Assembly (NCBI GenBank): GCA_018651925.1
Contig: JABIDC010000002.1
Span: 1 to 49,609, forward strand
Reading direction: 5' to 3'
DNA length: 49,609 nt
From: an archaeon
GTDB taxonomy: Archaea; Nanobdellota; Nanobdellia; Pacearchaeales; GW2011-AR1
Position numbers and translations under genes: made by a program. The first letter of the stretch is position 1, and every line of letters begins with the position of its first letter. Positions 1 to 18,515 of the stretch are shown in pieces. The notes below the pieces were generated by a model that worked only from the letters and a program-made list of their open reading frames with translations, did not search any database and was not told the origin of the DNA.

Positions 1-3000
1 AGTTGAAGAAGGAACACAAGTTTCATTAACTGTAAATGGAAATCATTGCGATTCAAAAGAATTAAGTTTTGAGTTATTTGAAAATGATGGTATTTTTGGA
101 AATGATGAAGTGGTGTTAGATTATTTGCCTGCAAATGTTTTCTTTTCTGGGGGAATTGCAACTTCTACCTGGATTGCTGAATGGATTGATGATTCTGATG
201 GAAGTGATTCCGATCCAGAATTTATTTTTGTGGCTAGTTTGGTCGAAGATTCTTCGAATAATATTGAGAGTTCGGAAACGATGAAGGTTTTGCAAAAGGC
301 AATTATTCCAGAAGGAGATCCAGAAATTACTTCTGTTTCGAATGAGGGAGTTTTAAGTCATGGAAATGAATTTACAATAGATGGAATGAATCTTGGAACA
401 AAGAGCCCTGTAGAACCACTTTATTGGGATACTTTTGAAGATGAACCTATCGGAGAATATCTGGAAACTGATGATTACTGGAGTACTTTTACTGATGAGG
501 ATCCTAGCGTAACATCTTATTCAAATGAATTTAATAGGCCAGGTTCATTAGTAAATGCAAAAGCTATAATCACTGAACCTACAAGAGATTATTTTTATCG
601 GGACAATATTGGATTTGATGGTCGGATCTATGTGAATTATTGGATGAGATTTGATCAAGGAATTGATGATGGTGTTGGAGAATATTCTCAGATAAAATAT
701 TCTAGTCTAGGAAGATCATTTGCTGGAGGAAACAGCTATTATCCTGTTTATGGTTATTATCAATTTGATTATTTTCTTACTGGAAGTAAACCCCATTATG
801 CTCAACTTTATTTAGATGAGGGTGAATCTTCAACAGAGACAACAACTTATTTTGGAGGATCTCTTGATGAACATGTGTGGAGTAATATCGAAACAGAAAT
901 AATTGAATCAGATATTGGAGTAAGTAATGGTGAATTAGCTTATTGGTTAAATGGGCAATTTAGGGTGAGGGAAGGAGGATATAATAATCGGCCTACGGTG
1001 GATAAAAGAATTGATGCTATAAAGTTTGGACATACTGCAGCTAATGCAGCAATAACTGCGACAGAATATTTTGATAATATTTACATGGATTCAACAATTG
1101 CCCGGGTTGTAGTTTGTGATCAAGCTATTTGGAATGAAAGTGTTTCTAGGCATTGTGAAATACAAATCCCCAAAAGTAATTGGGATAATGGAAATGGAAA
1201 TTTAATTACTTTTGAAGCTAATCAAGGGAGTTTAAATTTAGGAACAACATATTATTTGTTTGTTATCGATGAAAATGGGAATGTTAGTAATGGTGAGCCA
1301 ATAAGTTTCGAATCTATAATTTCTTGTACTAATGGGGAGAAGAGGAATTGTGGTTCAAATATTGGAGAATGTTCTTATGGGGTAGAAACTTGTAACTCTG
1401 GAGTTTGGGGAACTTGTGTTGGAGGAGTAACCCCAATTACAGAAGTTTGTGGGAATAATTTAGATGATGATTGTGATTTACAAATAGATGAGGGTTGTGA
1501 TCCTATTGGGTGTTCTTCAAATCTAGATTGTTTTCAAGATTCAGATGTTTGTACAGAAAATGTTTGTAATTTAGGAACAGGTATTTGCGAATTAGAATTT
1601 ACAACTAATTCTTGTAATGATGGAATTACTTGTACTGAAAATGATTTATGCTCGCAAGGTAGTTGTGTTGCTGGAATTCTAAATGATGATTTGTGTTCTA
1701 TAAATCCAAATTGTTTAACAACTATTTGTACCTTGGATGGTTGCCAATATTCGAATTGTTCTGATAGTTCTGATGATCCAATTATTTATTTAGATTTTAA
1801 TTCTGGTTTTTTAGACTCTTCTGGGAATTCAAATCATGGAAGCTGTATTAATTGTCCAGTTCCAAGTGAAGGACAATTTGATGGAGCATATTATTTTAAT
1901 GGACTTAATAATTATTTAGATTTTGGAGATTTGGAATTAAGTTTGCCTTTAACTATTGCTTCTTGGGTAAAAATTGACAACAAGTCTCTTTTTGCGCCAA
2001 TTTTTCAAACTGATGATTCAAATCATTATTCTGGTGCTTGGTTACAAATTACTCCAGATAATAAGATTCGTGCAGGATTTGGAAATGGTGAAGGAAGTAG
2101 TTCACCTCATAAAAGGCAAGCTCTTGCAAGTGCTGATTCTATTATTGAAGGCGAATGGCACCATATTACTGCAACAATTCAAGATGCAGAGAATATTTTG
2201 ATTTATGTTGATGGAAATTTAATTAGCTCAACTTATGACGGGGTTGGAACTTCTTTTGTTTCTACAACTGATTCATTAATTGTTGGACGTAGAACTGTTT
2301 ATGGCCCAGATTATTTGAATGGAAACTTAGATGATTTACGTATTTATGAAAGGGTTTTGAGTTTTTTTGAAATTCTTGCAATTATGGAAGATGCTGAAGG
2401 TGCTGTTCCTTTTTGTAGTGATTCAGATGGTGATGAATATAATCTTTCTGGAGAAAGTTGTGGAATTCTTGATTGTAATGATTCAAATAATGAAATATAT
2501 CCTGGAGCAATTGAATTGTGTGACGGATTAGATAATGATTGTAATTCTTTGACTTCTGATGGGGTTAGTGAATCTTGGATCAATACCAATTCAACTTGTG
2601 GTATTGGAGAATGTTCAAATGCGGGAATTTTTATTTGTGAAACTGGAGTTAAAAAAAATAATTGTGTAATTTTGGAAGGAACCGATGAAATTTGTAATAA
2701 TTCTTTGGATGATGATTGTGATGGAAATATAGATCTGAATGATTCTGATTGTTTGAATGGTTCTGGAGAAGATCCTGGGACAGGAGATTCTCCTGGAGGA
2801 AATGATTATACTCCCTCTGGAACAACGGGAGATAATGGTGTTCCTCCAAGTTCTGGAAATAATAATCTTCCTGAAGACAATTATTCAAATGATTTTTCAA
2901 TTCAGAGTAATTTTAATTTTACTGACGGTTCAGTTTATTCTGTTGAAATTGAGCATGTTGGTTCTGGATTTAATTTTGAGGTTAAAGATCTTAATGAATC

Positions 3001-3379
3001 AGATTATTCTTTGGCTTCTCAGATAATTAATTATGATTCTTTTAATTTAAGTGCAAGTGCAGGATTTGTTAAGGGAAAGGTTTATTTTAAAGTTCCATTT
3101 TCTTGGTTAAATATAAATAATTTAAATTCTACAGATGTTTCACTTTATTCTTTAGTTTCTGATATTGAATATGAATCTAAAGAAATTAGTCGGGATGAAA
3201 ACTTTGTTTATTTTAGCTCGGAAGTTAATTCGTTGGGGGAGATTGCAATTATTGGAAAGGTTGTTATTGAAGAAAAAGATTTTAATTATTTGATTTGGGT
3301 AATTATTGGAATTTTAATTGTTGCAATTATTTTTGTTTTGGTTTCAATTATAAAGAAAAGAAATAAATTTAAGTTTTAG
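1..3379 (+). CDS. Large C-terminally membrane-anchored surface protein (5'-partial): ConA/polysaccharide-lyase-like module, Cys-rich MopE-like repeats, LamG domain, PGF-pre-PGF-like domain, C-terminal TM
   Basis: Frame is open from nt 2 (VEEGTQVSLTVNG...), so the true start lies upstream of the window. DCNDSNNEIYPGAIELCDGLDNDC repeats. LamG signature (GEWHHITAT...IYVDG...LNGNLDDLRIYERVLS). VYFKVPFSWL...FVYFSSEVNSLGEIAI. Hydrophobic C-terminal helix followed by KKRNKFKF. Confidence 0.8.
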   Translation, partial: VEEGTQVSLTVNGNHCDSKELSFELFENDGIFGNDEVVLDYLPANVFFSGGIATSTWIAEWIDDSDGSDSDPEFIFVASLVEDSSNNIESSETMKVLQKAIIPEGDPEITSVSNEGVLSHGNEFTIDGMNLGTKSPVEPLYWDTFEDEPIGEYLETDDYWSTFTDEDPSVTSYSNEFNRPGSLVNAKAIITEPTRDYFYRDNIGFDGRIYVNYWMRFDQGIDDGVGEYSQIKYSSLGRSFAGGNSYYPVYGYYQFDYFLTGSKPHYAQLYLDEGESSTETTTYFGGSLDEHVWSNIETEIIESDIGVSNGELAYWLNGQFRVREGGYNNRPTVDKRIDAIKFGHTAANAAITATEYFDNIYMDSTIARVVVCDQAIWNESVSRHCEIQIPKSNWDNGNGNLITFEANQGSLNLGTTYYLFVIDENGNVSNGEPISFESIISCTNGEKRNCGSNIGECSYGVETCNSGVWGTCVGGVTPITEVCGNNLDDDCDLQIDEGCDPIGCSSNLDCFQDSDVCTENVCNLGTGICELEFTTNSCNDGITCTENDLCSQGSCVAGILNDDLCSINPNCLTTICTLDGCQYSNCSDSSDDPIIYLDFNSGFLDSSGNSNHGSCINCPVPSEGQFDGAYYFNGLNNYLDFGDLELSLPLTIASWVKIDNKSLFAPIFQTDDSNHYSGAWLQITPDNKIRAGFGNGEGSSSPHKRQALASADSIIEGEWHHITATIQDAENILIYVDGNLISSTYDGVGTSFVSTTDSLIVGRRTVYGPDYLNGNLDDLRIYERVLSFFEILAIMEDAEGAVPFCSDSDGDEYNLSGESCGILDCNDSNNEIYPGAIELCDGLDNDCNSLTSDGVSESWINTNSTCGIGECSNAGIFICETGVKKNNCVILEGTDEICNNSLDDDCDGNIDLNDSDCLNGSGEDPGTGDSPGGNDYTPSGTTGDNGVPPSSGNNNLPEDNYSNDFSIQSNFNFTDGSVYSVEIEHVGSGFNFEVKDLNESDYSLASQIINYDSFNLSASAGFVKGKVYFKVPFSWLNINNLNSTDVSLYSLVSDIEYESKEISRDENFVYFSSEVNSLGEIAIIGKVVIEEKDFNYLIWVIIGILIVAIIFVLVSIIKKRNKFKF
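3342..3377 (+). repeat. 36-bp exact repeat (copy 1; copy 2 at 7232-7267) encoding the shared C-terminus SIIKKRNKFKF
   Basis: tttcaattataaagaaaagaaataaatttaagtttt is identical at both loci. Confidence 0.9.
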
Positions 3380-3453
3380 CACCTCTCGGTGTATCCCTAA
3401 GCATGGAATATTGTGGCAATAATATTTATTAAGTGATTTTTGTTGAAGAGATT

Positions 3454-6400
3454 ATGAAAAAGAGGATTAGTTTAATTATTGTTTTGGGAATTCTTCTTTT
3501 ATCTACAGGATTTTTATTTTTTCTAAAGGATAATTTAAATTTTACTGGGAATGCAATTATTGAAAATATTTGTGAAGCTACAGGGGATGGAAATTGTTAT
3601 TATATTTCTCCAACCGGAAGTGATTCAAATAATGGAAGTTTTTATTTTCCATATGCATCAACTAATCCTATAATTGATATTCTTGGTTCCGGAGACTATA
3701 TTTATTTTCGAGGGGGAAATTATGGCCCTTCTTCCCAAGGCCAAAATGCTCCAACGAATTATCCTCCAAATTTCCCTTCAATAGCTTACCTTAGCCATTT
3801 AAGTGGAACTCTTGGAAACCCAATTACTTTTACAGCATATCCTGGTGAAATTCCGATTATAGATATGTATGAAATTAATCCTTCTTTTGATCCCTTTGAA
3901 TATGGTCCTGGAGGCCCAATTCATGATCCAGTTCATAGTCCAGATAATGCATTTCATCTTTATCATTCAGATCATATTGTGATAAAAGGATTTGAAATTA
4001 TTCATGGATCAATAATGATTTATGGTTCTGAGAATACTTGGATCGAAGATAATCACATTCATGATATGTATAGTGACAGAGATAATAATGGTTTAATTGT
4101 TCTTTATTTTACCCAGCATGCATATGTAAATAATAATGATTTACATGATGTTTATTCCAGGACAATTGTTGATGAGAGGTGGCCAAATAACACAATAAAG
4201 AGTTGGAAGTATAATTATGTTGAAAGTCATGAAGATGCCCAACATAATGGGTGTATTACTACTCTTTCTGGAGACACTTATAGTGGAGGATATGGTAGTG
4301 AAAGTTCTGGACCCTTTGAGATTATAGGCAATAAAATTTATGATTGTCCGGTTCACCTTTTTATTAAGAATCCTCAAGGACAATTAACAAATAATCAGGG
4401 GATAAATTTGTTGGTGAAAGATAATTATTTCTTTGGTGAAGGGCGTTTGGCAGAACACTTTAATGCGGCAAATGTTTTATTTGAAAATAATTTATTTAAG
4501 GATATTGGCGGAATTTCTGATGTGGGAAATTCAGAATATCCTAATTGTGAACCTCCTCATGGTTGCAGTGAAGAAATTTTAAATGAAATTTGTGCTCGTA
4601 ATGTTGTTTTTCAAAATAATGTTTTTTCTAATGTTTCTTATTTAGCGAATATTCAAGGATTAGGGTTTTTGATTGGTAATGGGGTTTATTCAACTGCAAT
4701 GGAAGATAAATTTAAATTTTATAATAATGTTGTTATTGTTAGTGATTCTGAAGCATCAACTCCTGGAACAATGGGGTATAATGAAAGAGGGTATCTTTTT
4801 TCAAATACTCGTGCTGGGATGGATGACGCTACAAATGAACTTCCTTCTAAAACTTTATCAAGAATTGATTCAATGAATAATTGTTATATTAATAAACATG
4901 GAGAGAATATTGCGTTTTTCAAACGTTGGGTTGATGGTTCATCAAGTATTACTGGAATTAGCGTAAGTGACGCACAAAATTTGTATAATGTAAATGGTGC
5001 TGGCGACTTATTTCCAAGTGATACCTTGACTTCAACACATTTTAATGATCTTAGTAACAATGATTATTCTATTAAGGTTTCTTCTCCTTGTTCAAGTATT
5101 TCTAATATTGGTTTAACAAATCCAGAGATTTTCTTTTATGATTCAATGCAAGAGTGTGGCAATAATATTATTGAATATCCTGAAACTTGTGATGGAGTTT
5201 CTCTTGGAGGAATGACTTGTTCTGAAGGAGGATTTAGGGAAGGATCTATTGGTTGCTATGATAATTGTTCATATGATTATTCTGCTTGTGTTCCAGAAAC
5301 TTTTGCAGTTGAAAGTGTGAGTAATTTTGGTAACTTGGAACAAGGACAAAATTATACAATTAATGGAATTGGTTTTGGAGAGAAATATCCTGTTGAACCT
5401 TTGCGTTGGGATAATTTTGAGGATCGTATTGTTTCTACAAATATTAGTGAAGATTATTATTGGGAAGTTTTATATTTAGATGATGGGCCTAACGGAGAAC
5501 CTGCTCCTTATTTTTCTGAAGAATTTAATCGGGTTAATTCTTTAGTTAATGCAAAAACAATTCATGCAGGATTAAATGATTATTTTTATCGAAATGATAT
5601 TCCTTTTGGAGATCATTTTTATATTAATTTTTGGAATCGTTTTGATCAAGGAATGAGAACTGATGGTTTAAATCAAATGCAACTTAAATTATTTAGTATT
5701 TGTAAAGCTTTTCCAAATAGTAATCCCGAAGATTATCCTTGTCTTGCTGATTTAAATTGGGTTTACGAAAATCCTACGCGTAGAAGTCGTTATACTTCTC
5801 TTTATCAACCAACCGGAGAAGAGGGGGCAGATAATGTTGCAGCACCTTCATTTTCACAAGGATTTGTTTATCCAGAGGGTTCTTGGAATAACCTCGAGTA
5901 TGAAGTTGTTCAAGCTGCAGTTGGAGATTATGATGGAGAATTTAGGCAGTGGGCAGATGGTTTGTTAATTGGAGAAAGTACAAATTTAAGGCTTAGGCCA
6001 ACAGAAGATAAATATTATGGGGGCATTAAATTAGGTTGGTTTTTAGGAAACGGAGGAGAATATGCTGAAGAATATTTTGATGATATTTATTTTGATAACA
6101 CTATTGCAAGAGTTATGGTTTGCAATAAAAATACCTGGAATGAAACTGTGGCAGGGCATTGTGAAATACAAATTCCCCATTCAACTTGGAATGATTCTGA
6201 AATTGAATTTACTGCAAATCTTGGTTCGTTTGATTCTGAAGAATCTTTGTATTTATTTGTAGTTGATGAGGATGGAAATGTTACTGGGGGAGAAAGGGTT
6301 TATGGAGTTTTTGAAGATGTTCCTTGCACAGATAATGATCATGATGGATATAATTTTGAAGGGGGGATTTGCGGAGTTATTGATTGTAATGATTTTAATG

Positions 6401-7269
6401 AGGTTATTTATCCTGGAGCAAATGAGTCTTGTGATGGATTAGATAATGATTGTGATTCTGGAACCGTTGATGGTTCAGAAGAAATTTGGATAAATCAACC
6501 AACAATTTGTGGAACTGGAATTTGTTTTTCAACTGGGAGTTATAGTTGTATTTCTGGAAGTCAAAATGATTCTTGTGTTGCAGGAAGTCGTGGTGTAGAA
6601 AATTGTACGAATTCATTAGATGATGATTGTGATGGGGCTACTGATTTAGAAGATACAGATTGTAATGATGATTCAGGAGGAGAACCTGGAGATACCTCTC
6701 CTGGAGGAAACACTGGCGGAGATGGAACTACTTCTGGAGGAGATGAATTAGAAAATGAAAGTGATGAAGATTATTCTCCTCAAGAAGAATTGAATCAAAG
6801 TGTTTTCCAATTTTATGATTCCTCTGTTTATTGGGTTGCAGCAAATCATCGTGGAAGTTCAATTGAAATGGATATTACTAAGGTAAATGAAAGTTTAGAG
6901 GGAGCTTATGATTTCTTTGAAGTTGTAGGGGAAGGAGATTTTGTTTCCGGAAGAGTTTACTTTAAGGTTGCATTATCTTGGTTACAAAATAATAATTTAA
7001 CTTCTGAAGAAATTCAATTATATTCTTTTGAAACAAATTCTGAATCAGATTCTCGCGAAGAATTTAGGGATGAGAATTTTGTTTACTTTAGTTCTGAGGT
7101 GGATTCTCTTGGAGAGTTTGCAATTGTTTCAAAGAATTTAGTTTTATCTGAAGAGTTTTCTGAAAATAATTTTAATTATTTTGTTTGGATCATTATGGGA
7201 ATTTTAATTGTTGCAATCGTTTTTGTTTTGTTTTCAATTATAAAGAAAAGAAATAAATTTAAGTTTTGA
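3454..7269 (+). CDS. Large surface protein: N-terminal TM/signal, right-handed beta-helix (PL9/DUF1565-like), ConA/lyase-like module, MopE-like Cys repeats, PGF-pre-PGF-like domain, C-terminal TM
   Basis: Start moved to ATG 3454 (MKKRISLIIVL), about 21 nt after TTTATTAA. YYISPTGSDSNNGS start motif, GDYIYFRGGNY, Asn-ladder beta-helix repeats, DCNDFNEVIYPGANESCDGLDNDC. Paralogous to the preceding gene. Confidence 0.8.
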   Translation: MKKRISLIIVLGILLLSTGFLFFLKDNLNFTGNAIIENICEATGDGNCYYISPTGSDSNNGSFYFPYASTNPIIDILGSGDYIYFRGGNYGPSSQGQNAPTNYPPNFPSIAYLSHLSGTLGNPITFTAYPGEIPIIDMYEINPSFDPFEYGPGGPIHDPVHSPDNAFHLYHSDHIVIKGFEIIHGSIMIYGSENTWIEDNHIHDMYSDRDNNGLIVLYFTQHAYVNNNDLHDVYSRTIVDERWPNNTIKSWKYNYVESHEDAQHNGCITTLSGDTYSGGYGSESSGPFEIIGNKIYDCPVHLFIKNPQGQLTNNQGINLLVKDNYFFGEGRLAEHFNAANVLFENNLFKDIGGISDVGNSEYPNCEPPHGCSEEILNEICARNVVFQNNVFSNVSYLANIQGLGFLIGNGVYSTAMEDKFKFYNNVVIVSDSEASTPGTMGYNERGYLFSNTRAGMDDATNELPSKTLSRIDSMNNCYINKHGENIAFFKRWVDGSSSITGISVSDAQNLYNVNGAGDLFPSDTLTSTHFNDLSNNDYSIKVSSPCSSISNIGLTNPEIFFYDSMQECGNNIIEYPETCDGVSLGGMTCSEGGFREGSIGCYDNCSYDYSACVPETFAVESVSNFGNLEQGQNYTINGIGFGEKYPVEPLRWDNFEDRIVSTNISEDYYWEVLYLDDGPNGEPAPYFSEEFNRVNSLVNAKTIHAGLNDYFYRNDIPFGDHFYINFWNRFDQGMRTDGLNQMQLKLFSICKAFPNSNPEDYPCLADLNWVYENPTRRSRYTSLYQPTGEEGADNVAAPSFSQGFVYPEGSWNNLEYEVVQAAVGDYDGEFRQWADGLLIGESTNLRLRPTEDKYYGGIKLGWFLGNGGEYAEEYFDDIYFDNTIARVMVCNKNTWNETVAGHCEIQIPHSTWNDSEIEFTANLGSFDSEESLYLFVVDEDGNVTGGERVYGVFEDVPCTDNDHDGYNFEGGICGVIDCNDFNEVIYPGANESCDGLDNDCDSGTVDGSEEIWINQPTICGTGICFSTGSYSCISGSQNDSCVAGSRGVENCTNSLDDDCDGATDLEDTDCNDDSGGEPGDTSPGGNTGGDGTTSGGDELENESDEDYSPQEELNQSVFQFYDSSVYWVAANHRGSSIEMDITKVNESLEGAYDFFEVVGEGDFVSGRVYFKVALSWLQNNNLTSEEIQLYSFETNSESDSREEFRDENFVYFSSEVDSLGEFAIVSKNLVLSEEFSENNFNYFVWIIMGILIVAIVFVLFSIIKKRNKFKF

Positions 7270-9016: not shown

Positions 9017-10207
9017 TTATCTCAAAACATATTCAATTTCTTCTTCGCTTAATTTCAATTGTTTTTGAATTTTATTATTAGACTTAATTATTTTTTTAAT
9101 TAAATAAAAATCTTGCATTGCTCGTTTTGCCCCAATATGAACTAATGCTGCATATTTTGTTGCAATTGATTTTTTCTTTGCTGTCTTCTGGTTATTTAGC
9201 CAAATTTTTAGTATTCTAGAGGGTTTCTGATAGTTAGTAAATCCTGTTTTTGGATTCTTCTTAGCTGCAGAAATTCCAAAACTTAGAAATATATTTTCAT
9301 AAACCATGAATCTCCAATATTGTTGTTTGTAAATTCTTCCTTTGAATAAATCTACTTGTGCTAAGGCTTCGTAAGCTTTTGCTAATTCTACTCCAGAATA
9401 TTCTTCAGGAATATTTTCTTCAACCCATAGAATTATTTCATCTAATTGCATATTTACTTCATCGTATGCTCGCAATGTTTCATTTGTGGGTTTATCTTTG
9501 AATACTTTTTTTAATGCATTAAAGATTGTTACTTCTTTATTTCTTTCATCTAGACTAATCATTTCTGGGTCTCTTGTTCTTGAAACAGCTTGTAAATCAT
9601 TTATTGCTGCCCTCAAATCTCCTTTTGATCGAACTCCAATACTTGTTACAAGATTTGCATTAAGGAATAAGTCTTCTTTTTTTAAGATTTCAAAAAGAAT
9701 AGAATTAATTATTTTATAATCAATATTTTCTAGCTCAATTAATTCAGCTTTTTTTCTTAATGCACTTAACTTTTTACTGTATGCGTCATTTGCAGTGATT
9801 ATTATTGGATATTTTGTTGTCGAAATTAAATTCAATATTTCTGAGATTCCTCCTCTATCTTTCATTCCTGAAACCCCGTCTGCTTCATCAATTAAAATTA
9901 GTTTGTTTTCTTTTAATAGAGATTTTTGTTGCAATGCTGGTTTTAGAGTTTCTTGCATTTCTTTTTTATTTCTAAGATCCGACGCATTTAATTCAAAGAT
10001 TTCATAATCCAATCCCCTTGCAACTGCGTGTGCTAGAGTGGTTTTTCCAATTCCTGGACCCCCATGAAGAAGGACTGCTTTTTTCTTGGAGATTTTATGT
10101 GTTGCAAGAAATCTTCTTAATTTTGTGACTGCATCTTCTTGTCCTTTTACAGAATCAATATTTTTTGGACGATATTTTTCTACCCATGGAATGTCTTTAG
10201 ATTTCAT
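9017..10207 (-). CDS. rfcL: Replication factor C large subunit
   Basis: PWVEKYRPK, Walker A GGPGIGKT, ELNASDLR, LIDEADG. Adjacent to rfcS. Confidence 0.93.
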   Translation of the reverse strand: MKSKDIPWVEKYRPKNIDSVKGQEDAVTKLRRFLATHKISKKKAVLLHGGPGIGKTTLAHAVARGLDYEIFELNASDLRNKKEMQETLKPALQQKSLLKENKLILIDEADGVSGMKDRGGISEILNLISTTKYPIIITANDAYSKKLSALRKKAELIELENIDYKIINSILFEILKKEDLFLNANLVTSIGVRSKGDLRAAINDLQAVSRTRDPEMISLDERNKEVTIFNALKKVFKDKPTNETLRAYDEVNMQLDEIILWVEENIPEEYSGVELAKAYEALAQVDLFKGRIYKQQYWRFMVYENIFLSFGISAAKKNPKTGFTNYQKPSRILKIWLNNQKTAKKKSIATKYAALVHIGAKRAMQDFYLIKKIIKSNNKIQKQLKLSEEEIEYVLR

Positions 10208-10226
10208 ATTAAATTAATTTAAACAT

Positions 10227-11192
10227 TCATTTACCTAAGCCAGCCAATACAAAGCTTGCAATCAATGCTTGAAGTTGAATAAATGGGTCTGATCCTTCAA
10301 CAATTCTAAATTCAGTTTCTCCAGTTTTTTCAGTAAGTTTAACTTTGATTTCTGGTTCAACTGGTAAGTTCCAGATTTCTTTTTGAATTGCTTTAATTAC
10401 TTCTTGTCCAGAAATACTTTCTTTTAACATGATGTCTAAAAGTTTTTCTTTTGATTTTTTGAAATCTCCTGAAATTGCATAATCTAAAACTATCTTGATA
10501 TCTTTTGGTTTAGCATTTGCAAGAATTGTTGAAACTAAATCCGTAGTTATTGTAGGGGAAATTGATGCGGTTGTTTGTAATAAATTTATACATCTTCTAC
10601 AATCTCCTTCGCTTCCCTCGTAAATAGTTTCTCTTGCTTCTGGATTTATTGTTAAGTTTTCATCGTTTGCAATCCATTCCATGACTTTGTCAATATCCTT
10701 TTTTTCTAAAAGTTTAAATCTAAACATTGCACAACGAGATTGAATCGGATCAATTATTTTACTTGAATAATTGCAAGACATTATGAATCTACAGGTTGAA
10801 GAGTAGTTCTCCATTGTTCTTCTAAGTGCTTGTTGAGCTTCTGGAGTTAATGCATCTGCTTCATCCAAGAAAATAACTTTAAATGGAACATCTCCAAGGG
10901 CCTTTGTTCTTGCGAAATCTTTTACTTTTTCTCGGACAATATTGATTCCCCTTTCATCTGAAGCATTTAATTCTAAGTAATTTGTTTTCCAAGTGTCTTT
11001 GAATAACTCTTTTACGATGATTAGAGCTAATGTTGATTTTCCTGTTCCTGCTGGGCCTGCAAAGAGCAAATGAGGGATGTTTAATGTGTTTGTTAGAGCT
11101 TCAATTCTTTTTATGATATCATCTTGTCCAACAACTTGGGAGAATTTTTTTGGCCGATATTTTTCTGTCCAGATTTCACTTGTCATAATCAT
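10227..11192 (-). CDS. rfcS: Replication factor C small subunit
   Basis: WTEKYRP, PHLLFAGPAGTGKS, ELNASDERGI, LDEADAL, AQQALRRTME, SRC motif. No intein. Confidence 0.96.
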   Translation of the reverse strand: MIMTSEIWTEKYRPKKFSQVVGQDDIIKRIEALTNTLNIPHLLFAGPAGTGKSTLALIIVKELFKDTWKTNYLELNASDERGINIVREKVKDFARTKALGDVPFKVIFLDEADALTPEAQQALRRTMENYSSTCRFIMSCNYSSKIIDPIQSRCAMFRFKLLEKKDIDKVMEWIANDENLTINPEARETIYEGSEGDCRRCINLLQTTASISPTITTDLVSTILANAKPKDIKIVLDYAISGDFKKSKEKLLDIMLKESISGQEVIKAIQKEIWNLPVEPEIKVKLTEKTGETEFRIVEGSDPFIQLQALIASFVLAGLGK

Positions 11193-13348: not shown

Positions 13349-13912
13349 TTATTTTAATGACCAAAGCATTTTTGTGTAACCAGTATTATCAATATCTTTT
13401 TTGTTAATTTCTAATTCTTTTAATGCGGTGTTAATTAATTGTTTTGCTTTCTCTACTTCTTTTTCTTGGCATAAATATTCAATCTCTAAAAAATATCCAA
13501 GACTTTTTACCTTATGCAATTCAATTGTTAAATTTTTGTTTTTGCGATATTTGTAACTTTCAGTTATTTTTGTTTTTTCTACCCATTCTTCAAAATTTAA
13601 ATCTTTGAATAGTTCGGATAAATTTTCTATATCTTTTTTTTCTTTTATTGAAAATTCAAATTCTTTTTTTACTACAATTTCTTTATCAGATAGTTCTTTT
13701 ATCTTTTTCTTAAAATTAATTTCAAATTTATTTGGTTTTTCTCTTATTCTGAATGCTTTTTTTGGATATTTCTTTTTTAGGAGTTTATTTTTTATTGCAA
13801 AATATTTGTCGGTTCTTGTTTCTTTTTTGTCTAACTTTGCTATTGATTTAATTTTCTTTCTTAGATTTATTGGGTCTTTAACCCTTGCTTTTGTTTCTAC
13901 TTCTAACCACAT
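13349..13912 (-). CDS. CYTH-domain protein (class IV adenylate cyclase CyaB-like / triphosphate tunnel metalloenzyme)
   Basis: N-terminal ExExK (EVETK), DKYF, FRIR, K-x-T/R segment, LGYFLEIE. Confidence 0.85.
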   Translation of the reverse strand: MWLEVETKARVKDPINLRKKIKSIAKLDKKETRTDKYFAIKNKLLKKKYPKKAFRIREKPNKFEINFKKKIKELSDKEIVVKKEFEFSIKEKKDIENLSELFKDLNFEEWVEKTKITESYKYRKNKNLTIELHKVKSLGYFLEIEYLCQEKEVEKAKQLINTALKELEINKKDIDNTGYTKMLWSLK

Positions 13913-13927
13913 TTTTCTTTAAATGTA

Positions 13928-14116
13928 CGCCCCGACCGTGATTCGAACACGGGTCACTGCCGTTCTCCAAAAGAAGGTTGCATTGAGATGCATAGACTTC
14001 CTCTCTCATCGAGATTTTTTCACCTCTCTTTTGAAATTTCTTTCAAGTCGTTTTGACCTGAAACAACTTTCGTTGTTTTGAGAGGGCAGCATACTTGGCC
14101 TCTGTACTATCGGGGC
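13928..14116 (-). tRNA. tRNA-Glu(CTC) with a 116-nt intron at position 37/38 (intron 13963-14078)
   Basis: Acceptor GCCCCGA/TCGGGGC, D arm GTAC/GTAT, anticodon stem CTGCC/GGCAG with loop CT-CTC-A|C, T arm CCGTG-TTCGAAT-CACGG. BHB core: CTCT pairs with GGAG, bulges CA|A and AA|C. Exons total 73 nt. No encoded CCA. Confidence 0.93.
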
Positions 14117-14219
14117 GTGTTTTGCTCTGAAAGTACAGGGTTTACTCAGATTCAAATTATTGGGTTAATTTGGATCTTGCGAAAATATGAAGGATATTTT
14201 CAGCGTGTACTATCGGGGC
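14103..14219 (-). repeat. 14-bp direct repeat of the tRNA-Glu 5' end (14103-14116 and 14206-14219) flanking an 89-nt hairpin-rich insert
   Basis: tgtactatcggggc occurs twice, 103 nt apart. It equals tRNA nt 1-14, GCCCCGATAGTACA. Confidence 0.92.
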
Positions 14220-14241
14220 ATAATTAATTGAAAGAAAAGTG

Positions 14242-14404: not shown

Positions 14405-14746
14405 ATGGTAAACGGGGTGGTTTTTCTTGTAATCTCAGCTTTGGTAATTGTAATTTGGGTTTTAATAGAGTTTAAACGTCTTGAACATAAACTTTTTGCA
14501 TATTTTTTAATAGGAATGATTTTGGTAGTTGCTGCAAGTTTTTCGGTTGTTACAAGTAATTATGATATTGATTATGGGTCTGCTTCTGGGCTAATGACTG
14601 CGGGAAAAGTTTATTTTTCTTGGATTGGTTCAGTATTTGGAAATGCTAAAACAATGACAAGCCACGCTATTAAATTAGATTGGGAAATGAATGAGAGTGT
14701 GGAGCAAGTTGATTTAAAAAAATCTTTAGCTGATTCCTTAGAATGA
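14405..14746 (+). CDS. Small membrane protein, unknown function
   Basis: Two hydrophobic helices. C-terminal ..TSHAIKLDW is shared with the next gene. Confidence 0.65.
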   Translation: MVNGVVFLVISALVIVIWVLIEFKRLEHKLFAYFLIGMILVVAASFSVVTSNYDIDYGSASGLMTAGKVYFSWIGSVFGNAKTMTSHAIKLDWEMNESVEQVDLKKSLADSLE

Positions 14747-14943
14747 AATTTTTTTCGTTCATTTTGATTTTTCTTGTTTTAAATTCGTTATTAATTATTA
14801 GTAATAATAATCTTCATTTAGAAACAGAAGAGGGAATAGATAATTTTTTAGGAGATTATTCTTTTTTTGTAGAGAAAGTTTATTCTAATGTTTTGAGAGT
14901 TACTTCAAATGTGATAAAACTTGATTGGATTGCTACAGACTAA
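14743..14943 (+). CDS. Small membrane protein, paralogue of the preceding gene
   Basis: ATGA overlap with the upstream stop, one TM, C-terminal ..TSNVIKLDW. Confidence 0.6.
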   Translation: MKFFSFILIFLVLNSLLIISNNNLHLETEEGIDNFLGDYSFFVEKVYSNVLRVTSNVIKLDWIATD

Positions 14944-14983: not shown

Positions 14984-15349
14984 ATGGTGAAGAAAAAGAT
15001 GGTGCGCAGTTCTGCGTACTCCAAGTCGCGGAGTTCTGGAGCAAAAAAGAAGATTGTTAAATCAAAGGTTTCAAATTCTAAAGTAAATAAAAAAGTTGTA
15101 AAATCAAATAAAACTCCTAGAAAGGTTCAGATGAGAAGTGTTTTTTCAAAGTATAAATTCCATATTGCAGTTAGAGATTTAATTTTATTCTCAGTTTTAT
15201 TCTTTTTGGTGTTCTTCTTAAGGGTAATTTCAACCAATGTGATTTTAGATAATATCTTCTTCTTATTGATGATTGTTTTCGGATTCTTAGCAATTGCCTT
15301 CTTTATAGTATTTTTAATATTTATTTTTGCTAGAATTTTTAGAAAATAA
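14984..15349 (+). CDS. Membrane protein with a Lys-rich N-terminus and two C-terminal TM helices
   Basis: ORF composition. TTTAAATA lies about 21 nt upstream. Confidence 0.65.
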   Translation: MVKKKMVRSSAYSKSRSSGAKKKIVKSKVSNSKVNKKVVKSNKTPRKVQMRSVFSKYKFHIAVRDLILFSVLFFLVFFLRVISTNVILDNIFFLLMIVFGFLAIAFFIVFLIFIFARIFRK

Positions 15350-15478
15350 ATAGGTCTCAGTTGAGATTTCAATGATTGTTAATTTTCTTGGGTTTATTTG
15401 AATAATCAAGTAATTTTTAATAATTTACAGGCCGACAGATAGAAATATATTTATAAATTAAAATAATAAATTATATAG

Positions 15479-16111
15479 ATGAGAAAGCTTCTAAAAAACC
15501 CCCTAACTCCAATTGCATTATTTGCATTAATAATTTTAGCAATATTATTTTTTCCTGGACAATCTGATATTAAGAATAATTTTTGTGGGATTCATATAGA
15601 TTATCGATATTGTAAGTGTGCATTTCATAATGAATATTGTGAAAGTTTAGGAATGAGTAAAAGTGAAGCAAATTCGTTTGTTCAAGAAGAATATGAAAAA
15701 TGGAAAGATTCGCTAAATCCAACGGAATCGGAAGAAGAAGATGAAAAATATGGTATTATTGAAAAAGATGGAAACCTTTATCTTAATTCAAAGCCAGGAG
15801 AAGTGCTCGAAATAAAAACGAAGGATTTGCCAAATTGGGCTCGTGAAAAAATTGCTACAGTTGGTGCAGAAATAATGGTTGGGGGACCATTAGATCAAAT
15901 TGCAGAAGGAGATTCAAATGTTCTTTTAGATGGACTTCCAATAGCAAGAGTGGGAGACGAAACAGTTCAAGGTGGAGTAATAACTGTTGGTTCAGAAAAT
16001 ATTTTTGTTAATGGAAAACCTGTTGCAATTATTGGGGGGATGACAACAAACTCTCAATTAACAGGAACGGTTCCTCATATTGGTGGTCCAATAATAAATA
16101 ATGTTAATTAG
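15479..16111 (+). CDS. Exported or membrane-anchored PAAR-domain protein with an N-terminal Cys-rich module
   Basis: N-terminal hydrophobic helix. FCGIHIDYRYCKCAFHNEYC. PAAR-type repeats IAEGDSNVLLDGLPIARVGD and ITVGSENIFVNGKPVA, and terminal PHIGGPI. Confidence 0.8.
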   Translation: MRKLLKNPLTPIALFALIILAILFFPGQSDIKNNFCGIHIDYRYCKCAFHNEYCESLGMSKSEANSFVQEEYEKWKDSLNPTESEEEDEKYGIIEKDGNLYLNSKPGEVLEIKTKDLPNWAREKIATVGAEIMVGGPLDQIAEGDSNVLLDGLPIARVGDETVQGGVITVGSENIFVNGKPVAIIGGMTTNSQLTGTVPHIGGPIINNVN

Positions 16112-16137
16112 TTCTTATTAGATTAAGAAAATAAATA

Positions 16138-16210
16138 AGCCACAGCCGAGATTCGAACTCGGGACCTTTACATTACCAATGTAACGCTCTACCAACTGAG
16201 CCACTGCGGC
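16138..16210 (-). tRNA. tRNA-Thr(GGT)
   Basis: GCCGCAG/CTGTGGC acceptor with U73, D arm GCTC/GAGC, anticodon arm TTACA-TTGGTAA-TGTAA, T arm CCGAG-TTCGAAT-CTCGG. 73 nt. Confidence 0.95.
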
Positions 16211-16294
16211 ATTTTTGAATTAGCCACAGCGTTCAGTTTAGCACTGCTCAGTGCACCCTTAATTGCGGAGTTCTGGGGCAAGCCACTGCGGCAT
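16199..16294 (-). repeat. 14-bp direct repeat of the tRNA-Thr 5' end (16199-16212 and 16281-16294) flanking a 68-nt insert that also contains a copy of the 3' acceptor strand (16222-16230)
   Basis: agccactgcggcat occurs twice, 82 nt apart. agccacagc occurs at 16138-16146 and 16222-16230. Confidence 0.92.
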
Positions 16295-16877: not shown

Positions 16878-18515
16878 ATGATTAATTGTAAAAGAGGTTT
16901 ATCTACAATAGTGACTATGTTGTTAGTTATTTTATTCGCATTTATGATGGTGGCGATTGTTTGGGTTGCGATTAAAGGAACAATTGATGAAGGAACTGAA
17001 AAAATTACTTTGGATTCTACTTATCTTGATTTATCTATCTCCCAGGTTTTGGTTGATTCTTCGGGAATTTTGGTTAGTGTTGAAAGAGGAAATGGAAAAG
17101 GAGAATTGAATGCTTTAAAGTTTGTTGTTTCAGATGGAGTTAATTCAGAAGTGATCGATCTAAATAATGTTACTTTAGATGAATTGAATTTGAAAACTTT
17201 TAATCTGACTGGATATGAAGGAATTGTAAAAGAAATTTCTGTGGCACCTACTTTTTATGATGATAAAGGGAAAAGATTTGTTGGAGAAATAAAAGATACT
17301 TATCAGTTTGAAGAAGATGAAGTAATTAAAAATATTCCTGGAATTATTTCTTGGTGGAAATTTGATTCTGATGCTACTGATTCTGTTGGAAGAAATTATG
17401 CTGAGAAAGGAAATAATCCTGAATTTGTAGAGGGAAAGTTTGGGGGTGCAATTCAATTTGACTCAGCGGAATCAAGTCCCTCTTCAAATAATGATTATTT
17501 AGAATCTGATGGAACAGACTTACAAATTAGTGGAAATGAATTTAGTGCTTTTGCTTGGGTTAAAAGAAGAACGTTGGTGGACGCATCTAATCCTCCCCCT
17601 TTAGATCATCCTATGTATTTTATTAGTAATGGAAGAGATTCTGCTTCGGTTGGAGGATTTACATTACTTTTTTCTCAATGGGGAAATTATTTTCAATCAA
17701 TCATTGCTTTTGAAAACGCTACAGGGACATATAATAAACATGTGGGAGATATGGGGTTGGATGATCCTGTAAATGATTATGATTGGCATTTTTATGGAGT
17801 TATTTTTAATGGAACGAGGATGTCAAATTATATTGGTACTAAAGAAACTGGATTTTTTGATGTTTCTGGTACTTACATTCCTTCCACTGTTTCTTTTAAA
17901 ATGGGTGCGATGGGAAATAACCCCGATTACAATGGATTTAATGGGAGTTTGGATAATGTGATGGTTTTTGATAGGGCATTAACCTCTACAGAAGTTGAGG
18001 GTTTGTACAATTTTAATTTTGGAGGAACTTATTCTGAGCCTGAAGAAGAAAGTTATACTTGCGGAGTTATTAATAGTGGAACCTGCCAATCAAGCGGATG
18101 CGATCCGGACTGGGAACCAATGGGTTCTGGAACTTGTGGTTCCGGACAAGAATGTTGTAGCGAAATTGATTATGCTGCACTATGTAATAATGTAAATCTT
18201 GTACCCGTGCCTTATTCTGCTATTTGCTGGTATAGTGATGATTTGGGAGTAGATCTTTGTAATTTTACTATTCAAAGAAATGCTCCTGCTCAAGAGTATG
18301 CTGGAATGAAAATTCATTTTGAGGATTTTGATCGTAATGATGGAGGTAACTTTGAGTATCCCGGTGAAATTCCTGTTTCTGGAACCCGTTATGAAGAGAA
18401 TGTTATATTAGAAAATGAGATGGATGATCAAATATCGATGTTAATTCGTGCATATTTTGATACTGCTGCTGGAGAATATCTTTGCCCTGAAAGAGGTTAT
18501 TCTGTATTAGGATAA
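16878..18515 (+). CDS. Type IV pilin-like protein (class III signal peptide) with a LamG adhesin domain and a Cys-rich C-terminal region
   Basis: KRG|LSTIVTMLLVILFAFMMVAIVW class III signal. SWWKFD...GKFGGAIQFD...WHFYG...FNGSLDNVMVFDRALTSTEV LamG signature. Confidence 0.82.
   Translation: MINCKRGLSTIVTMLLVILFAFMMVAIVWVAIKGTIDEGTEKITLDSTYLDLSISQVLVDSSGILVSVERGNGKGELNALKFVVSDGVNSEVIDLNNVTLDELNLKTFNLTGYEGIVKEISVAPTFYDDKGKRFVGEIKDTYQFEEDEVIKNIPGIISWWKFDSDATDSVGRNYAEKGNNPEFVEGKFGGAIQFDSAESSPSSNNDYLESDGTDLQISGNEFSAFAWVKRRTLVDASNPPPLDHPMYFISNGRDSASVGGFTLLFSQWGNYFQSIIAFENATGTYNKHVGDMGLDDPVNDYDWHFYGVIFNGTRMSNYIGTKETGFFDVSGTYIPSTVSFKMGAMGNNPDYNGFNGSLDNVMVFDRALTSTEVEGLYNFNFGGTYSEPEEESYTCGVINSGTCQSSGCDPDWEPMGSGTCGSGQECCSEIDYAALCNNVNLVPVPYSAICWYSDDLGVDLCNFTIQRNAPAQEYAGMKIHFEDFDRNDGGNFEYPGEIPVSGTRYEENVILENEMDDQISMLIRAYFDTAAGEYLCPERGYSVLG

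What the first reader, a model, noticed from the sequence alone, without database searches (positions are those of the whole stretch)
15479..16111. Orphan, exported or membrane-tethered, circularly permuted PAAR spike-tip protein
Seen: hydrophobic N-terminus, four-Cys module (FCG......CKCAFH..YC), acidic linker, then three PAAR-like repeats. I compared them from memory with the eCIS-type PAAR pattern (repeat 1 PAAR..D.H.CP...PH.GGPI; repeat 2 PAARVGD...C.GPPD.I..G; repeat 3 PAAR.GD.T.HGG.I..G). The order here is 2-3-1: KIATVG....GGPLDQIAEG, PIARVGDETVQGGVITVG, PVAIIGG....TVPHIGGPI. Most Zn-ligand His/Cys residues are replaced and only PH remains. Known: PAAR proteins cap VgrG/gp5 spikes of T6SS, eCIS and phage tails and normally lack signal peptides. 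No VgrG, sheath or tube gene lies in this window. The gene ends 26 nt from the tRNA-Thr 3' end, a typical acquisition site. Inference: a domesticated spike tip displayed on a symbiotic or parasitic archaeon for host contact, or a decoy that caps incoming spikes.
Basis: partly seen in the sequence, partly recalled or inferred. Interest (0 to 1): 0.75.

Follow-up and report, generated by a model that had tools for sequence, protein, structure and literature searches.

The report
Surface-tethered, circularly permuted PAAR protein
A small archaeal gene encodes an exported, membrane-tethered version of the cone-shaped protein that normally tips bacterial injection spikes, with its three repeats in rotated order, which hints that this fold has a second, still unknown job on cell surfaces.

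Summary
ORF 15479..16111 (+, 210 aa) is real and under purifying selection. It has a hydrophobic N-terminus, a Cys4-His module, an acidic linker and a PAAR domain (PF05488, 45 bits, cutoff 27).

- **Permutation:** relative to eCIS/T6SS PAARs the repeat order is 2-3-1. Profile hits, two solved PAARs and a target-doubling test agree.
- **Zn site:** only one of five canonical Cys/His positions survives.
- **Not an orphan protein:** 54 close relatives and 620 representative hits exist, in Woesearchaeota/Nanoarchaeota, Parcubacteria and Izemoplasma MAGs. Nearly all relatives carry a lipobox Cys; this copy has Gln instead. More distant relatives place the same module between a signal peptide and a C-terminal TM helix.
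- **No injection machinery nearby:** no VgrG, sheath, tube or baseplate gene in the window or in nine related loci. My control showed this test has low power.
- **No acquisition signal:** the tRNA adjacency is not conserved, and composition and codon usage are native.

Best reading: a PAAR-fold knob displayed outside the membrane, independent of contractile injection systems, and probably a protein-docking module. Its function is inferred, not shown. Novelty: new variant of a known kind.

The parts
15450..15457 (+). TATA-like box (tttataaa), about 22-29 nt upstream of the ATG; a possible archaeal promoter for a leaderless mRNA
   Evidence: Read from the sequence. This is an inference only. The bacterial-type scan is not informative for archaea.
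15479..16111 (+). Complete ORF of 210 aa, stop codon included: the exported, tethered, permuted-PAAR protein
   Evidence: Comparison with L001 gives dN 0.267 against dS 1.072.
15479..15562 (+). aa 1-28: basic n-region (MRKLLK), a 15-residue hydrophobic core, then PGQ where relatives have the lipobox L-x-G-C. Either a signal-anchor or a signal peptide.
   Evidence: The lipobox Cys is present in 9 of 9 related-locus proteins. It is also present in 38 (by regex) to 40 (by eye) of the 45 close relatives with a hydrophobic N-terminus. It is absent here.
15563..15718 (+). aa 29-80: Cys4-His module (DIKNNFCG-x7-CKCAFH-x3-C, then a helical-looking tail), an N-terminal module shared by many otherwise unrelated exported proteins
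   Evidence: C, G, C, C, F, C invariant in 19 sequences. No Pfam family, no PDB relative, no Atlas hit.
15719..15748 (+). aa 81-90: acidic linker (PTESEEEDEK), variable in length among relatives
15749..15847 (+). aa 91-123: conserved pre-PAAR segment (YGIIEKDGNLYLNSKPGEVLEIKTKDLPNWARE), a probable beta-meander resembling a single propeller blade
   Evidence: As conserved as the PAAR repeats (mean 0.67). Invariant or near-invariant residues G92, P106, L110, D116, L117, P118, W120, A121. The profile weakly matches blades of designed 'Cake' and PQQ propellers. No similarity to canonical PAAR was detected.
15848..15934 (+). aa 124-152: PAAR repeat of type 2 (KIATVG...GGPLDQIAEG...LLDG)
   Evidence: Aligns to profile positions 43-~70 of collinear PAARs.
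15935..16015 (+). aa 153-179: PAAR repeat of type 3 (LPIARVGDETVQGGVITVG...FVNG). The only repeat that keeps the R...D pair. The DxxxH His is replaced by Q164.
16016..16099 (+). aa 180-207: PAAR repeat of type 1 (KPVAIIGG...TVPHIGGPII), moved to the C-terminus
   Evidence: Aligns to profile positions 2-31 (24.0 bits, i-E 1.4e-7) and to residues 22-32 of 9rce_c.

Best explanation
The gene encodes an extracytoplasmic, membrane-tethered protein with four parts.
1. An N-terminal signal. In nearly all relatives it is a lipoprotein signal. In this copy the lipobox Cys is Gln, so the hydrophobic segment probably stays as a signal-anchor or is cut by a type I peptidase.
2. A membrane-proximal Cys4-His module, used as an N-terminal handle by many unrelated exported proteins.
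3. An acidic spacer.
4. A distal 120-aa module made of a conserved beta-meander plus a PAAR domain. Its repeats are circularly permuted (2-3-1) and its Zn site is lost.

The module is made outside the membrane, so it cannot be loaded onto a spike assembled in the cytoplasm (T6SS, eCIS or phage tail). I therefore read it as a surface knob that works independently of contractile injection systems and docks on another extracellular protein. I propose that the docking uses the conserved PAAR-motif base strands, and that the pre-PAAR meander stabilises or covers that base in the absence of VgrG.

Shown: the architecture, the homology, the permutation, the ligand loss, family-wide export signals, and the absence of contractile-system genes in the DNA examined.

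Inferred: the topology, retention at the membrane, the cone fold, docking as the function, and the role of the meander.
For: - PAAR homology.
- Permutation. It appears in 86 of the 91 family members that hit the profile (92 searched).
- Export signals: a lipobox Cys in 9 of 9 related-locus proteins, and in 38-40 of the 45 close relatives with a hydrophobic N-terminus.
- Membrane placement in distant relatives (alignment): among 43, 35 have a hydrophobic N-terminus, 29 a C-terminal TM-like segment and 24 both, and 2 carry PGF. The module therefore sits in the extracellular part.
- Archaeal lipoproteins are reported as prevalent in DPANN (PMC12462473, passages).
- Canonical Cys/His positions are mostly lost. 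Orphan PAARs normally have four Zn ligands and need DxxxH (PMC7773334, passages).
- No contractile-system families: 0 of 46 window ORFs, and 0 of 97 ORFs within +-5 kb in 9 loci. There was no phage match.
- Purifying selection and native codon usage.
- Modularity: the Cys module occurs with many other C-terminal parts. The PAAR module occurs with other stalks (L006-L009) and fused to a 10-Cys domain that is the divergent neighbour in L001.
Against: - No structure could be predicted, so the cone fold and the position of the meander are untested.
- No binding partner is identified. No gene neighbourhood is conserved.
- This copy lacks the lipobox Cys, so its anchoring is less certain than in its relatives. 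I had no signal-peptide predictor; export rests on hydropathy and motif inspection.
- The context test has low power. My intended positive control, a Pseudomonas PAAR (L010), is also solitary. A published survey found only 16.3% plus 20.7% of PAAR genes next to eCIS or T6SS genes (PMC8651086, passages).
- Whole genomes could not be scanned for a distant contractile-system locus.
- T6SS PAAR effectors with N-terminal TM helices exist, so a hydrophobic N-terminus alone does not exclude spike loading.
Confidence: 0.5

Rival explanations
1. A canonical spike tip: the protein caps a VgrG/gp5-like spike of a contractile system or virus tail encoded elsewhere in the genome, and the hydrophobic N-terminus is a membrane-insertion helix like those of prePAAR/TMD effectors.
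For: - PAAR genes are often far from their machines. Only 37% are adjacent in PMC8651086, and L010 is solitary.
- TM-bearing and split PAARs exist (PMC7773334).
- The best PDB matches are genuine spike tips.
Against: - A lipobox Cys directly follows the hydrophobic core in 9 of 9 loci.
- Type I relatives place the module between a signal peptide and a C-terminal TM helix.
- The Zn ligands and DxxxH are lost.
- No contractile-system family appears in the 49.6-kb window or in 9 loci.
- There is no phage match.
Confidence: 0.1
2. A host-contact or piercing device of an episymbiont: the cone on its stalk touches or penetrates the host envelope.
For: - Relatives are in Woesearchaeota, Nanoarchaeota and Parcubacteria MAGs, lineages generally held to be host-dependent (knowledge, not a call).
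- The cone is at the distal C-terminus of a tethered stalk.
- The window is rich in large LamG surface proteins.
Against: - There is no force generator.
- The linker is acidic and probably flexible.
- The module lies mid-chain, not at the tip, in the type I relatives.
- Those relatives include sequences of very different composition, and an Izemoplasma MAG.
- No surface-protein neighbour is conserved.
Confidence: 0.15
3. An extracytoplasmic metal-binding or redox protein: the Cys4-His module, and residual His residues in the PAAR part, bind a metal.
For: - The Cys4-His pattern is invariant.
- Ion or metal genes lie within +-5 kb in several loci: a P-type ATPase in 3, ZnuA/ABC-3/NikR in L006, CbiM in L009, and a multicopper oxidase and YceI in L005.
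Against: - The neighbours are not conserved, and none is in the window.
- The P-type ATPases are of the Cation_ATPase_N/C kind, which as I recall (no call tested this) is not the heavy-metal type.
- The PAAR Zn site is degraded, not kept.
- The Cys module is shared with many unrelated C-terminal domains.
Confidence: 0.1
4. A decoy or defence protein: it caps or blocks incoming phage or CIS spikes.
For: Its location outside the membrane.
Against: - There is no PADLOC hit for it or for 6 neighbours, apart from one weak HEase match (E 0.009) on ORF 13352-13912.
- It is not in a defence island.
- Spikes that use a PAAR arrive already capped (established knowledge).
- Purifying selection, with no sign of diversification.
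Confidence: 0.05

Closest known systems
eCIS/T6SS PAAR spike-tip proteins (Pfam PF05488), e.g. SalCis10 (PDB 9rce chain c), the T6SS PAAR 8gra_J, and 4jiv/4jiw
   Same: Homologous over all three PAAR repeats. The repeat-specific signatures are kept: GPPD-like, T-x-H/Q-GG, and VPH-x-GGPI.
   Different: - The repeat order is 2-3-1 instead of 1-2-3.
- A 35-aa pre-PAAR meander is added.
- Four of the five canonical Cys/His positions are lost.
- It carries an export or tether signal.
- No VgrG or contractile-system genes are nearby.
- It falls below the NCBIfam T6SS_PAAR cutoff (30.7 bits against 124).
Split PAAR / prePAAR effectors of T6SS (Tse6 class; PMC7773334, passages read)
   Same: A PAAR whose N-terminal piece is displaced in the chain, combined with hydrophobic N-terminal segments. 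This is a precedent for topological rearrangement of the fold.
   Different: - There, the AARxxDxxxH prePAAR motif supplies a Zn ligand and the protein is loaded on VgrG in the cytoplasm with Eag chaperones.
- Here, the displaced piece is moved to the C-terminus, no DxxxH is left, and the N-terminus looks like a Sec or lipoprotein signal.
Small signal-peptide-bearing PAAR proteins of bacteria (uncharacterised; e.g. P0108, P0126, P0134 among the representative hits)
   Same: A PAAR domain behind a signal-like N-terminus. 29 of the 41 small PAAR hits I inspected pass a crude hydropathy test.
   Different: - They consist of three near-identical repeats without the type 1 VPHxGGPI signature.
- They have no pre-PAAR meander, no Cys module and no lipobox.
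- I found no paper on them.
Type I membrane relatives with the same pre-PAAR plus permuted PAAR module (P0057, P0059, P0061, P0066 and others; alignment A4)
   Same: The same module and the same 2-3-1 order. The module is extracytoplasmic.
   Different: - They are anchored by a C-terminal TM helix or PGF-CTERM instead of an N-terminal lipid or anchor.
- They have variable N-terminal domains and an extra conserved ~55-aa domain.
- More of them keep Cys/His at the ligand positions.
Archaeal lipobox lipoproteins (AliA/AliB pathway; PMC12462473, passages read)
   Same: Relatives carry a classical lipobox (L-[AST]-G-C) after a Sec-type hydrophobic core. Such proteins are reported as prevalent in DPANN.
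   Different: This copy, along with P0002, P0017 and P0020, lacks the Cys. Lipidation of any family member is untested.

Membership tests
PAAR domain (Pfam PF05488) | Score above the Pfam gathering threshold | tested here: met
   45 bits against a cutoff of 27, E=1.3e-11. 52 of the 54 close relatives carry a precomputed PF05488.
PAAR domain (Pfam PF05488) | Three PAAR-motif repeats forming one pseudo-threefold unit | tested here: met
   Three repeats at aa 124-152, 153-179 and 180-207. Together they cover profile positions 43-95 and 2-31 of a ~97-position canonical profile. The order is permuted.
PAAR domain (Pfam PF05488) | Collinear 1-2-3 repeat order as in solved eCIS/T6SS PAARs | tested here: not met
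   The order is 2-3-1.
PAAR domain (Pfam PF05488) | Four His/Cys Zn ligands and DxxxH motifs (as stated in PMC7773334) | tested here: not met
   The window has I132, V134, Q164, N191 and H200, and no DxxxH. The close-family consensus keeps H164 (34 of 44) but has V134 (34 of 44) and D191 (30 of 44). Which residues bind Zn in this class was mapped by alignment, not from a structure.
PAAR domain (Pfam PF05488) | Cone-shaped beta fold | not testable with these tools
CIS spike tip (functional class) | Binds the blunt end of a VgrG/gp5 trimer | not testable with these tools
CIS spike tip (functional class) | Cytoplasmic protein without an export signal | tested here: not met
   A basic n-region plus a 15-residue hydrophobic core. 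A lipobox in 9 of 9 related loci. This is hydropathy and motif inspection only; no SignalP was available.
CIS spike tip (functional class) | Genomic association with VgrG, sheath, tube or baseplate genes | tested here: inconclusive
   None in the window or in 9 loci.
T6SS PAAR protein (NCBIfam NF033420) | Score above the curated cutoff | tested here: not met
   30.7 bits against a cutoff of 124.
Lipobox lipoprotein | [LVI][ASTVI][GAS]C directly after the hydrophobic core | tested here: not met
   The window has F-P-G-Q. The feature is met in the relatives: 9 of 9 loci and 38-40 of 45.

The most novel reading that the evidence does not exclude
The pre-PAAR plus permuted PAAR module is the tip or docking piece of a non-contractile surface structure assembled through the Sec pathway. 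Ultra-small single-membrane organisms (DPANN archaea, CPR bacteria, Izemoplasma) would use it to engage partner cells. This would be an evolutionary re-use of a spike tip outside any injection machine. It possibly works with the 10-Cys domain proteins that are fused to it in some relatives and adjacent to it in L001.
Probability: 0.12. Interest if true: 0.85.

Novelty: new variant of a known kind. Interest (0 to 1): 0.55.

Why it matters
The PAAR fold is treated as an obligate cap of contractile spikes, and annotation pipelines label these proteins 'Zn-binding protein involved in type VI secretion' (source names).

This family is Sec-exported, lipid- or TM-tethered, permuted and largely without Zn ligands. 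It occurs in small-genome archaea and bacteria that show no injection genes in the DNA examined. That suggests the fold has a second, unstudied life on cell surfaces.

Two practical consequences follow. The family warns against inferring T6SS or eCIS from a PAAR hit. It also gives a compact, conserved handle for studying the poorly known surfaces of DPANN and CPR organisms: the Cys4-His module and the pre-PAAR/PAAR knob.

Tried and rejected

No model means no Foldseek search.
I had planned to test the L001 10-Cys neighbour domain against the L001 PAAR module.

**Searches that led nowhere**
- The search for homologous proteins on sub-regions with 'longer' lengths gave 1 and 0 hits.
- The Atlas gave only weak PAAR leads at 0.77 for the whole protein and nothing for the Cys module.
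- PHROGs gave only the PAAR family phrog_281. PADLOC gave nothing relevant. The phage collection had no match. Plasmids gave 5 partial PAAR matches.

**The tRNA integration idea: rejected**
- No tRNA in 9 loci. Default ARAGORN misses intron-bearing tRNAs, as it did in the window.
- No integrase in the window. One integrase lies 3.9 kb downstream in L005 only.
- The 31-nt repeat that brackets the gene (81% identical) is AT-rich and weak.

**Other checks**
- Positive control for the context test: L010 turned out to be solitary as well.
- Conserved neighbours: none across loci.
- A second copy of either module in the window or loci: none.
- The module tree was poorly resolved.
- Pre-PAAR as a degenerate PAAR repeat: no profile hit, and pairwise scores of 16-18 against 22-41 between true repeats.

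**Papers**
- Shneider 2013 and Makarova 2019 are not held. Statements about the PAAR cone, its base binding VgrG and its poor solubility alone are recalled.
- I consulted no paper supplements. The PAAR tables in the supplements of PMC8651086 may list archaeal or signal-bearing PAARs that I did not see.

Full report
**1. Observation**

The ORF listing gives an ORF at 15479..16111 on the + strand, 210 aa.
- a basic and then hydrophobic N-terminus;
- FCG-x7-CKCAFH-x3-C (C36, C45, C47, H50, C54);
- an acidic stretch, PTESEEEDEK;
- three PAAR-like repeats.

ARAGORN places tRNA-Thr(ggt) at 16138-16210 on the - strand. That leaves 26 nt after the stop codon. Pfam scores PF05488 at 45 bits (cutoff 27, E=1.3e-11). 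NCBIfam's T6SS PAAR model reaches only 30.7 bits against a cutoff of 124.

**2. Circular permutation**

Against solved structures, phmmer aligns aa 126-179 to residues 46-99 of SalCis10 (9rce_c). It separately aligns aa 197-207 to residues 22-32 of the same chain. A family profile repeats this out-of-order pattern on 9rce_c and on the T6SS PAAR 8gra_J. SalCis10 is the PAAR-like cap of the SalCis8 trimer in a Salmonella eCIS (PMC13266070, passages).

I built a profile from six collinear PAARs found in my searches and ran it over 92 family members.
- The window protein gives two abutting hits: aa 125-177 to profile 43-95 (51.3 bits) and aa 178-207 to profile 2-31 (24.0 bits).
- 86 of the 91 members with hits show the same pattern.

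The classical doubling test agrees. Local scores against three canonical PAARs rise from 100, 111 and 117 to 166, 184 and 178 when the target is doubled. The alignments run across the junction. The maximum over 300 shuffles is 65, and a canonical-versus-canonical control moves only from 297 to 301.

The 2-3-1 order is therefore real. It is not unique in kind: P0051 (regex) and P0054 (by eye) have the order 3-1-2. 'Split PAAR' effectors are a published precedent for rearranged PAARs (PMC7773334, passages).

**3. Zn site**

At the five positions where the canonical class has Cys or His, the window has I132, V134, Q164, N191 and H200. The close family mostly keeps H164 (34 of 44) but has V134 (34 of 44) and D191 (30 of 44). 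More distant relatives keep Cys or His more often. Orphan PAARs are reported to use four His/Cys ligands and DxxxH motifs for Zn binding and folding. This copy has no DxxxH.

**4. The family**

The word-indexed search returned 54 proteins at E<=1e-3. About 45 of them share the same ~200-aa architecture. One is named 'PAAR domain-containing protein [Candidatus Woesearchaeota archaeon]' and one comes from Parcubacteria. The exhaustive representative search found 620 proteins at E<=1e-3, 90 at <=1e-10 and 9 at <=1e-30. They fall into three groups:
- proteins sharing aa ~83-208 (pre-PAAR plus PAAR), many of them 400-800 aa long;
- proteins sharing only the Cys module (aa ~28-80);
- small PAARs.

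In species-representative genomes, nine related loci were recovered: three Woesearchaeota MAGs, two MAGs labelled Methanosarcinales, one Nanoarchaeia, one Nanoarchaeota, one Parcubacteria and one Izemoplasma. A tenth locus holds a distant Pseudomonas PAAR.

The window itself is archaeal by gene content: RFC subunits, archaeal PheRS, the archaeal ThrRS editing domain and RNase P p30.

**5. Export and tethering**

All nine related-locus proteins have a lipobox Cys right after the hydrophobic core. Among 49 close relatives, 45 have a hydrophobic N-terminus. Of those, 38 match a lipobox regex, and two more do so by eye. The window protein, together with P0002, P0017 and P0020, lacks the Cys; it reads F-P-G-Q. 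Lipobox proteins are reported as prevalent in DPANN (PMC12462473, passages).

Among 43 more distant relatives, 35 have a hydrophobic N-terminus, 29 a C-terminal TM-like segment and 24 both. Two carry PGF. Their alignment shows this layout: signal peptide, variable N-domain, pre-PAAR plus PAAR, a conserved ~55-aa domain, a TM helix, then a basic tail. The module is therefore placed outside the membrane in two independent ways. I had no signal-peptide predictor, so this rests on hydropathy and motifs.

**6. Other modules**

The Cys module is invariant at C, G, C, C, F, C across 19 short proteins. It always sits just after the signal, and it heads proteins of 73-951 aa with otherwise unrelated sequences. 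It has no Pfam family, no PDB relative and no Atlas hit.

The pre-PAAR segment (aa 91-123) is as conserved as the repeats, 0.67 against 0.65-0.73. It weakly matches single blades of designed and PQQ-type beta-propellers. It shows no detectable similarity to PAAR repeats.

**7. Context**

- None of the 46 window ORFs hits a VgrG, sheath, tube, baseplate or integrase family. NCBIfam adds nothing for 23 ORFs.
- Among 97 ORFs within +-5 kb in nine loci, none hits a contractile-system family. One locus (L005) has an integrase 3.9 kb away.
- Neighbours are not conserved.
- No tRNA is called in the nine loci. Default ARAGORN also missed an intron-bearing tRNA in the window, so this count may be low.
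- There is no second copy of either module.
- The gene is compositionally native: GC 33.0% against 30.7% for the window, within the ORF range, and codon-usage rank 15 of 36.
- It is under purifying selection: dN 0.267 against dS 1.072 versus L001. dS is saturated against most other relatives.

A caveat weighs against my reading. The Pseudomonas PAAR that I meant as a positive control is also solitary. A survey found only 16.3% of PAAR genes near eCIS genes and 20.7% near T6SS genes (PMC8651086, passages). Absence of nearby machinery is therefore weak evidence, and I could not scan whole genomes.

**8. Interpretation**

The strongest argument against a classical spike tip is topological. Contractile spikes are assembled in the cytoplasm (established knowledge), whereas this family carries Sec or lipoprotein signals or sits between a signal peptide and a TM anchor. 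Loss of the Zn ligands points the same way.

I therefore read the protein as a tethered surface knob with a PAAR fold that works independently of contractile injection systems. Docking onto another extracellular protein is my preferred mechanism, because:
- the PAAR-motif strands stay conserved while the tip ligands decay;
- the module is shuffled among different stalks and heads;
- one such head is an 82-aa, 10-Cys domain. It is fused to the module in P0057, P0059, P0063 and P0091 and encoded by the divergent neighbour in L001.

This mechanism is inferred, not shown. The rivals are a tip for a distant contractile system, a host-piercing device, a metal-binding protein and a decoy. They are weighed in their own sections.

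**9. What stayed open**

- Structure prediction (five refusals) and complex prediction (unavailable) could not be run. The cone fold, the place of the pre-PAAR meander and any partner are untested.
- Cluster membership was switched off, so most hits lack taxonomy.
- Literature searches found no paper that describes exported, lipoprotein or permuted PAARs. This covers only the held library. I judged the listings by title and abstract, apart from the passages cited above.

Noticed in passing
window 13927-14117 (-): tRNA-Glu(ctc) with a 116-nt intron. Found only when ARAGORN was run with introns allowed; missed by the default run. A partial copy of its 5' end lies at about 14200-14220.
   Followed up: partly
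window 16222-16293 (-): A 72-nt GC-rich element right after tRNA-Thr. Its first 12 nt and last 9 nt copy the tRNA-Thr acceptor-stem halves, while the interior is unrelated. It is not called by ARAGORN or by Rfam at E<=1. Its fold is no better than shuffles (z -1.1).
   Followed up: partly
window 15004-15044 and 16241-16281: A 41-nt direct repeat at 71% identity. It links the 5' part of ORF 14984..15349 with the interior of the tRNA-like element (family D2). Unexplained.
   Followed up: no
window 15338-15368 and 16123-16153: A 31-nt imperfect direct repeat (81%) that brackets the PAAR gene. The second copy overlaps the 3' end of tRNA-Thr (family D5). It is AT-rich and weak, and probably arises by chance.
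   Followed up: partly
window 14405-14746 and 14743-14943 (+): Two small overlapping membrane-protein ORFs (113 and 66 aa) that end in a similar motif, TS..IKLDW. They have no family hits and were not seen in the related loci.
   Followed up: no
window 2-3379, 3433-7269, 16878-18515 (+): Large surface proteins with LamG (Laminin_G_3), the MopE metal-binding motif and sub-threshold PGF-pre-PGF hits. The 545-aa LamG protein just downstream starts with a short basic and then hydrophobic N-terminus that, by eye, resembles an archaeal pilin-type signal (the motif is recalled, not tested).
   Followed up: no
proteins P0098-P0200 (representative hits); window aa 29-80: The Cys4-His module DIKDDFCG-x7-CKCAFH-x3-C is an undescribed N-terminal module. 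It sits right after a lipobox and heads dozens of exported proteins of 73-951 aa. It has no Pfam or PDB match.
   Followed up: partly
proteins P0108-P0201 (representative hits): 29 of the 41 small PAAR hits I inspected (88-192 aa) have signal-like N-termini, and most of the signal-bearing ones end near a C-terminal Cys. Exported PAAR-like proteins seem common in bacteria, and they are unstudied in the papers I could search.
   Followed up: partly
L001 8349-9872 (-), next to the PAAR gene at 9932-10528 (+): The divergent neighbour (508 aa) starts with an 82-aa, 10-Cys domain (DCxPGY...CVCGSxGSxNExP...CPGCxYAC...CPGE). The same domain is fused N-terminal to the PAAR module in P0057, P0059, P0063 and P0091. 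This is a fusion-plus-adjacency link. The domain is absent from the window.
   Followed up: partly
alignment A4 (28 type I relatives): A conserved ~55-aa domain (GD.V.IG...E.A.V.DKGSLILDRPL..DHPAGT.V.RVP) lies between the PAAR module and the TM anchor. Neither Pfam nor a PDB profile search recognises it.
   Followed up: partly
L007 2259-3098, 3382-4524, 9176-10366; L008 1888-3153; L009 4098-5138: The Parcubacteria, Izemoplasma and Nanoarchaeota versions replace the Cys4-His module with a long stalk of ~19-aa Cys-containing repeats. L007 also encodes a lipoprotein made of that stalk alone. These three group weakly in the module tree (80/84), which hints at transfer between domains of life.
   Followed up: partly
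L001 13159-14169 (+): A Pretoxin-HINT (PT-HINT) domain protein lies 2.6 kb downstream of the PAAR gene in one locus only.
   Followed up: no
L010 9713-10207 (+): The Pseudomonas caricapapayae PAAR gene lies between SHMT and a CobW-family gene, with no VgrG within +-6 kb. This shows that solitary PAAR genes also occur in proteobacteria.
   Followed up: yes
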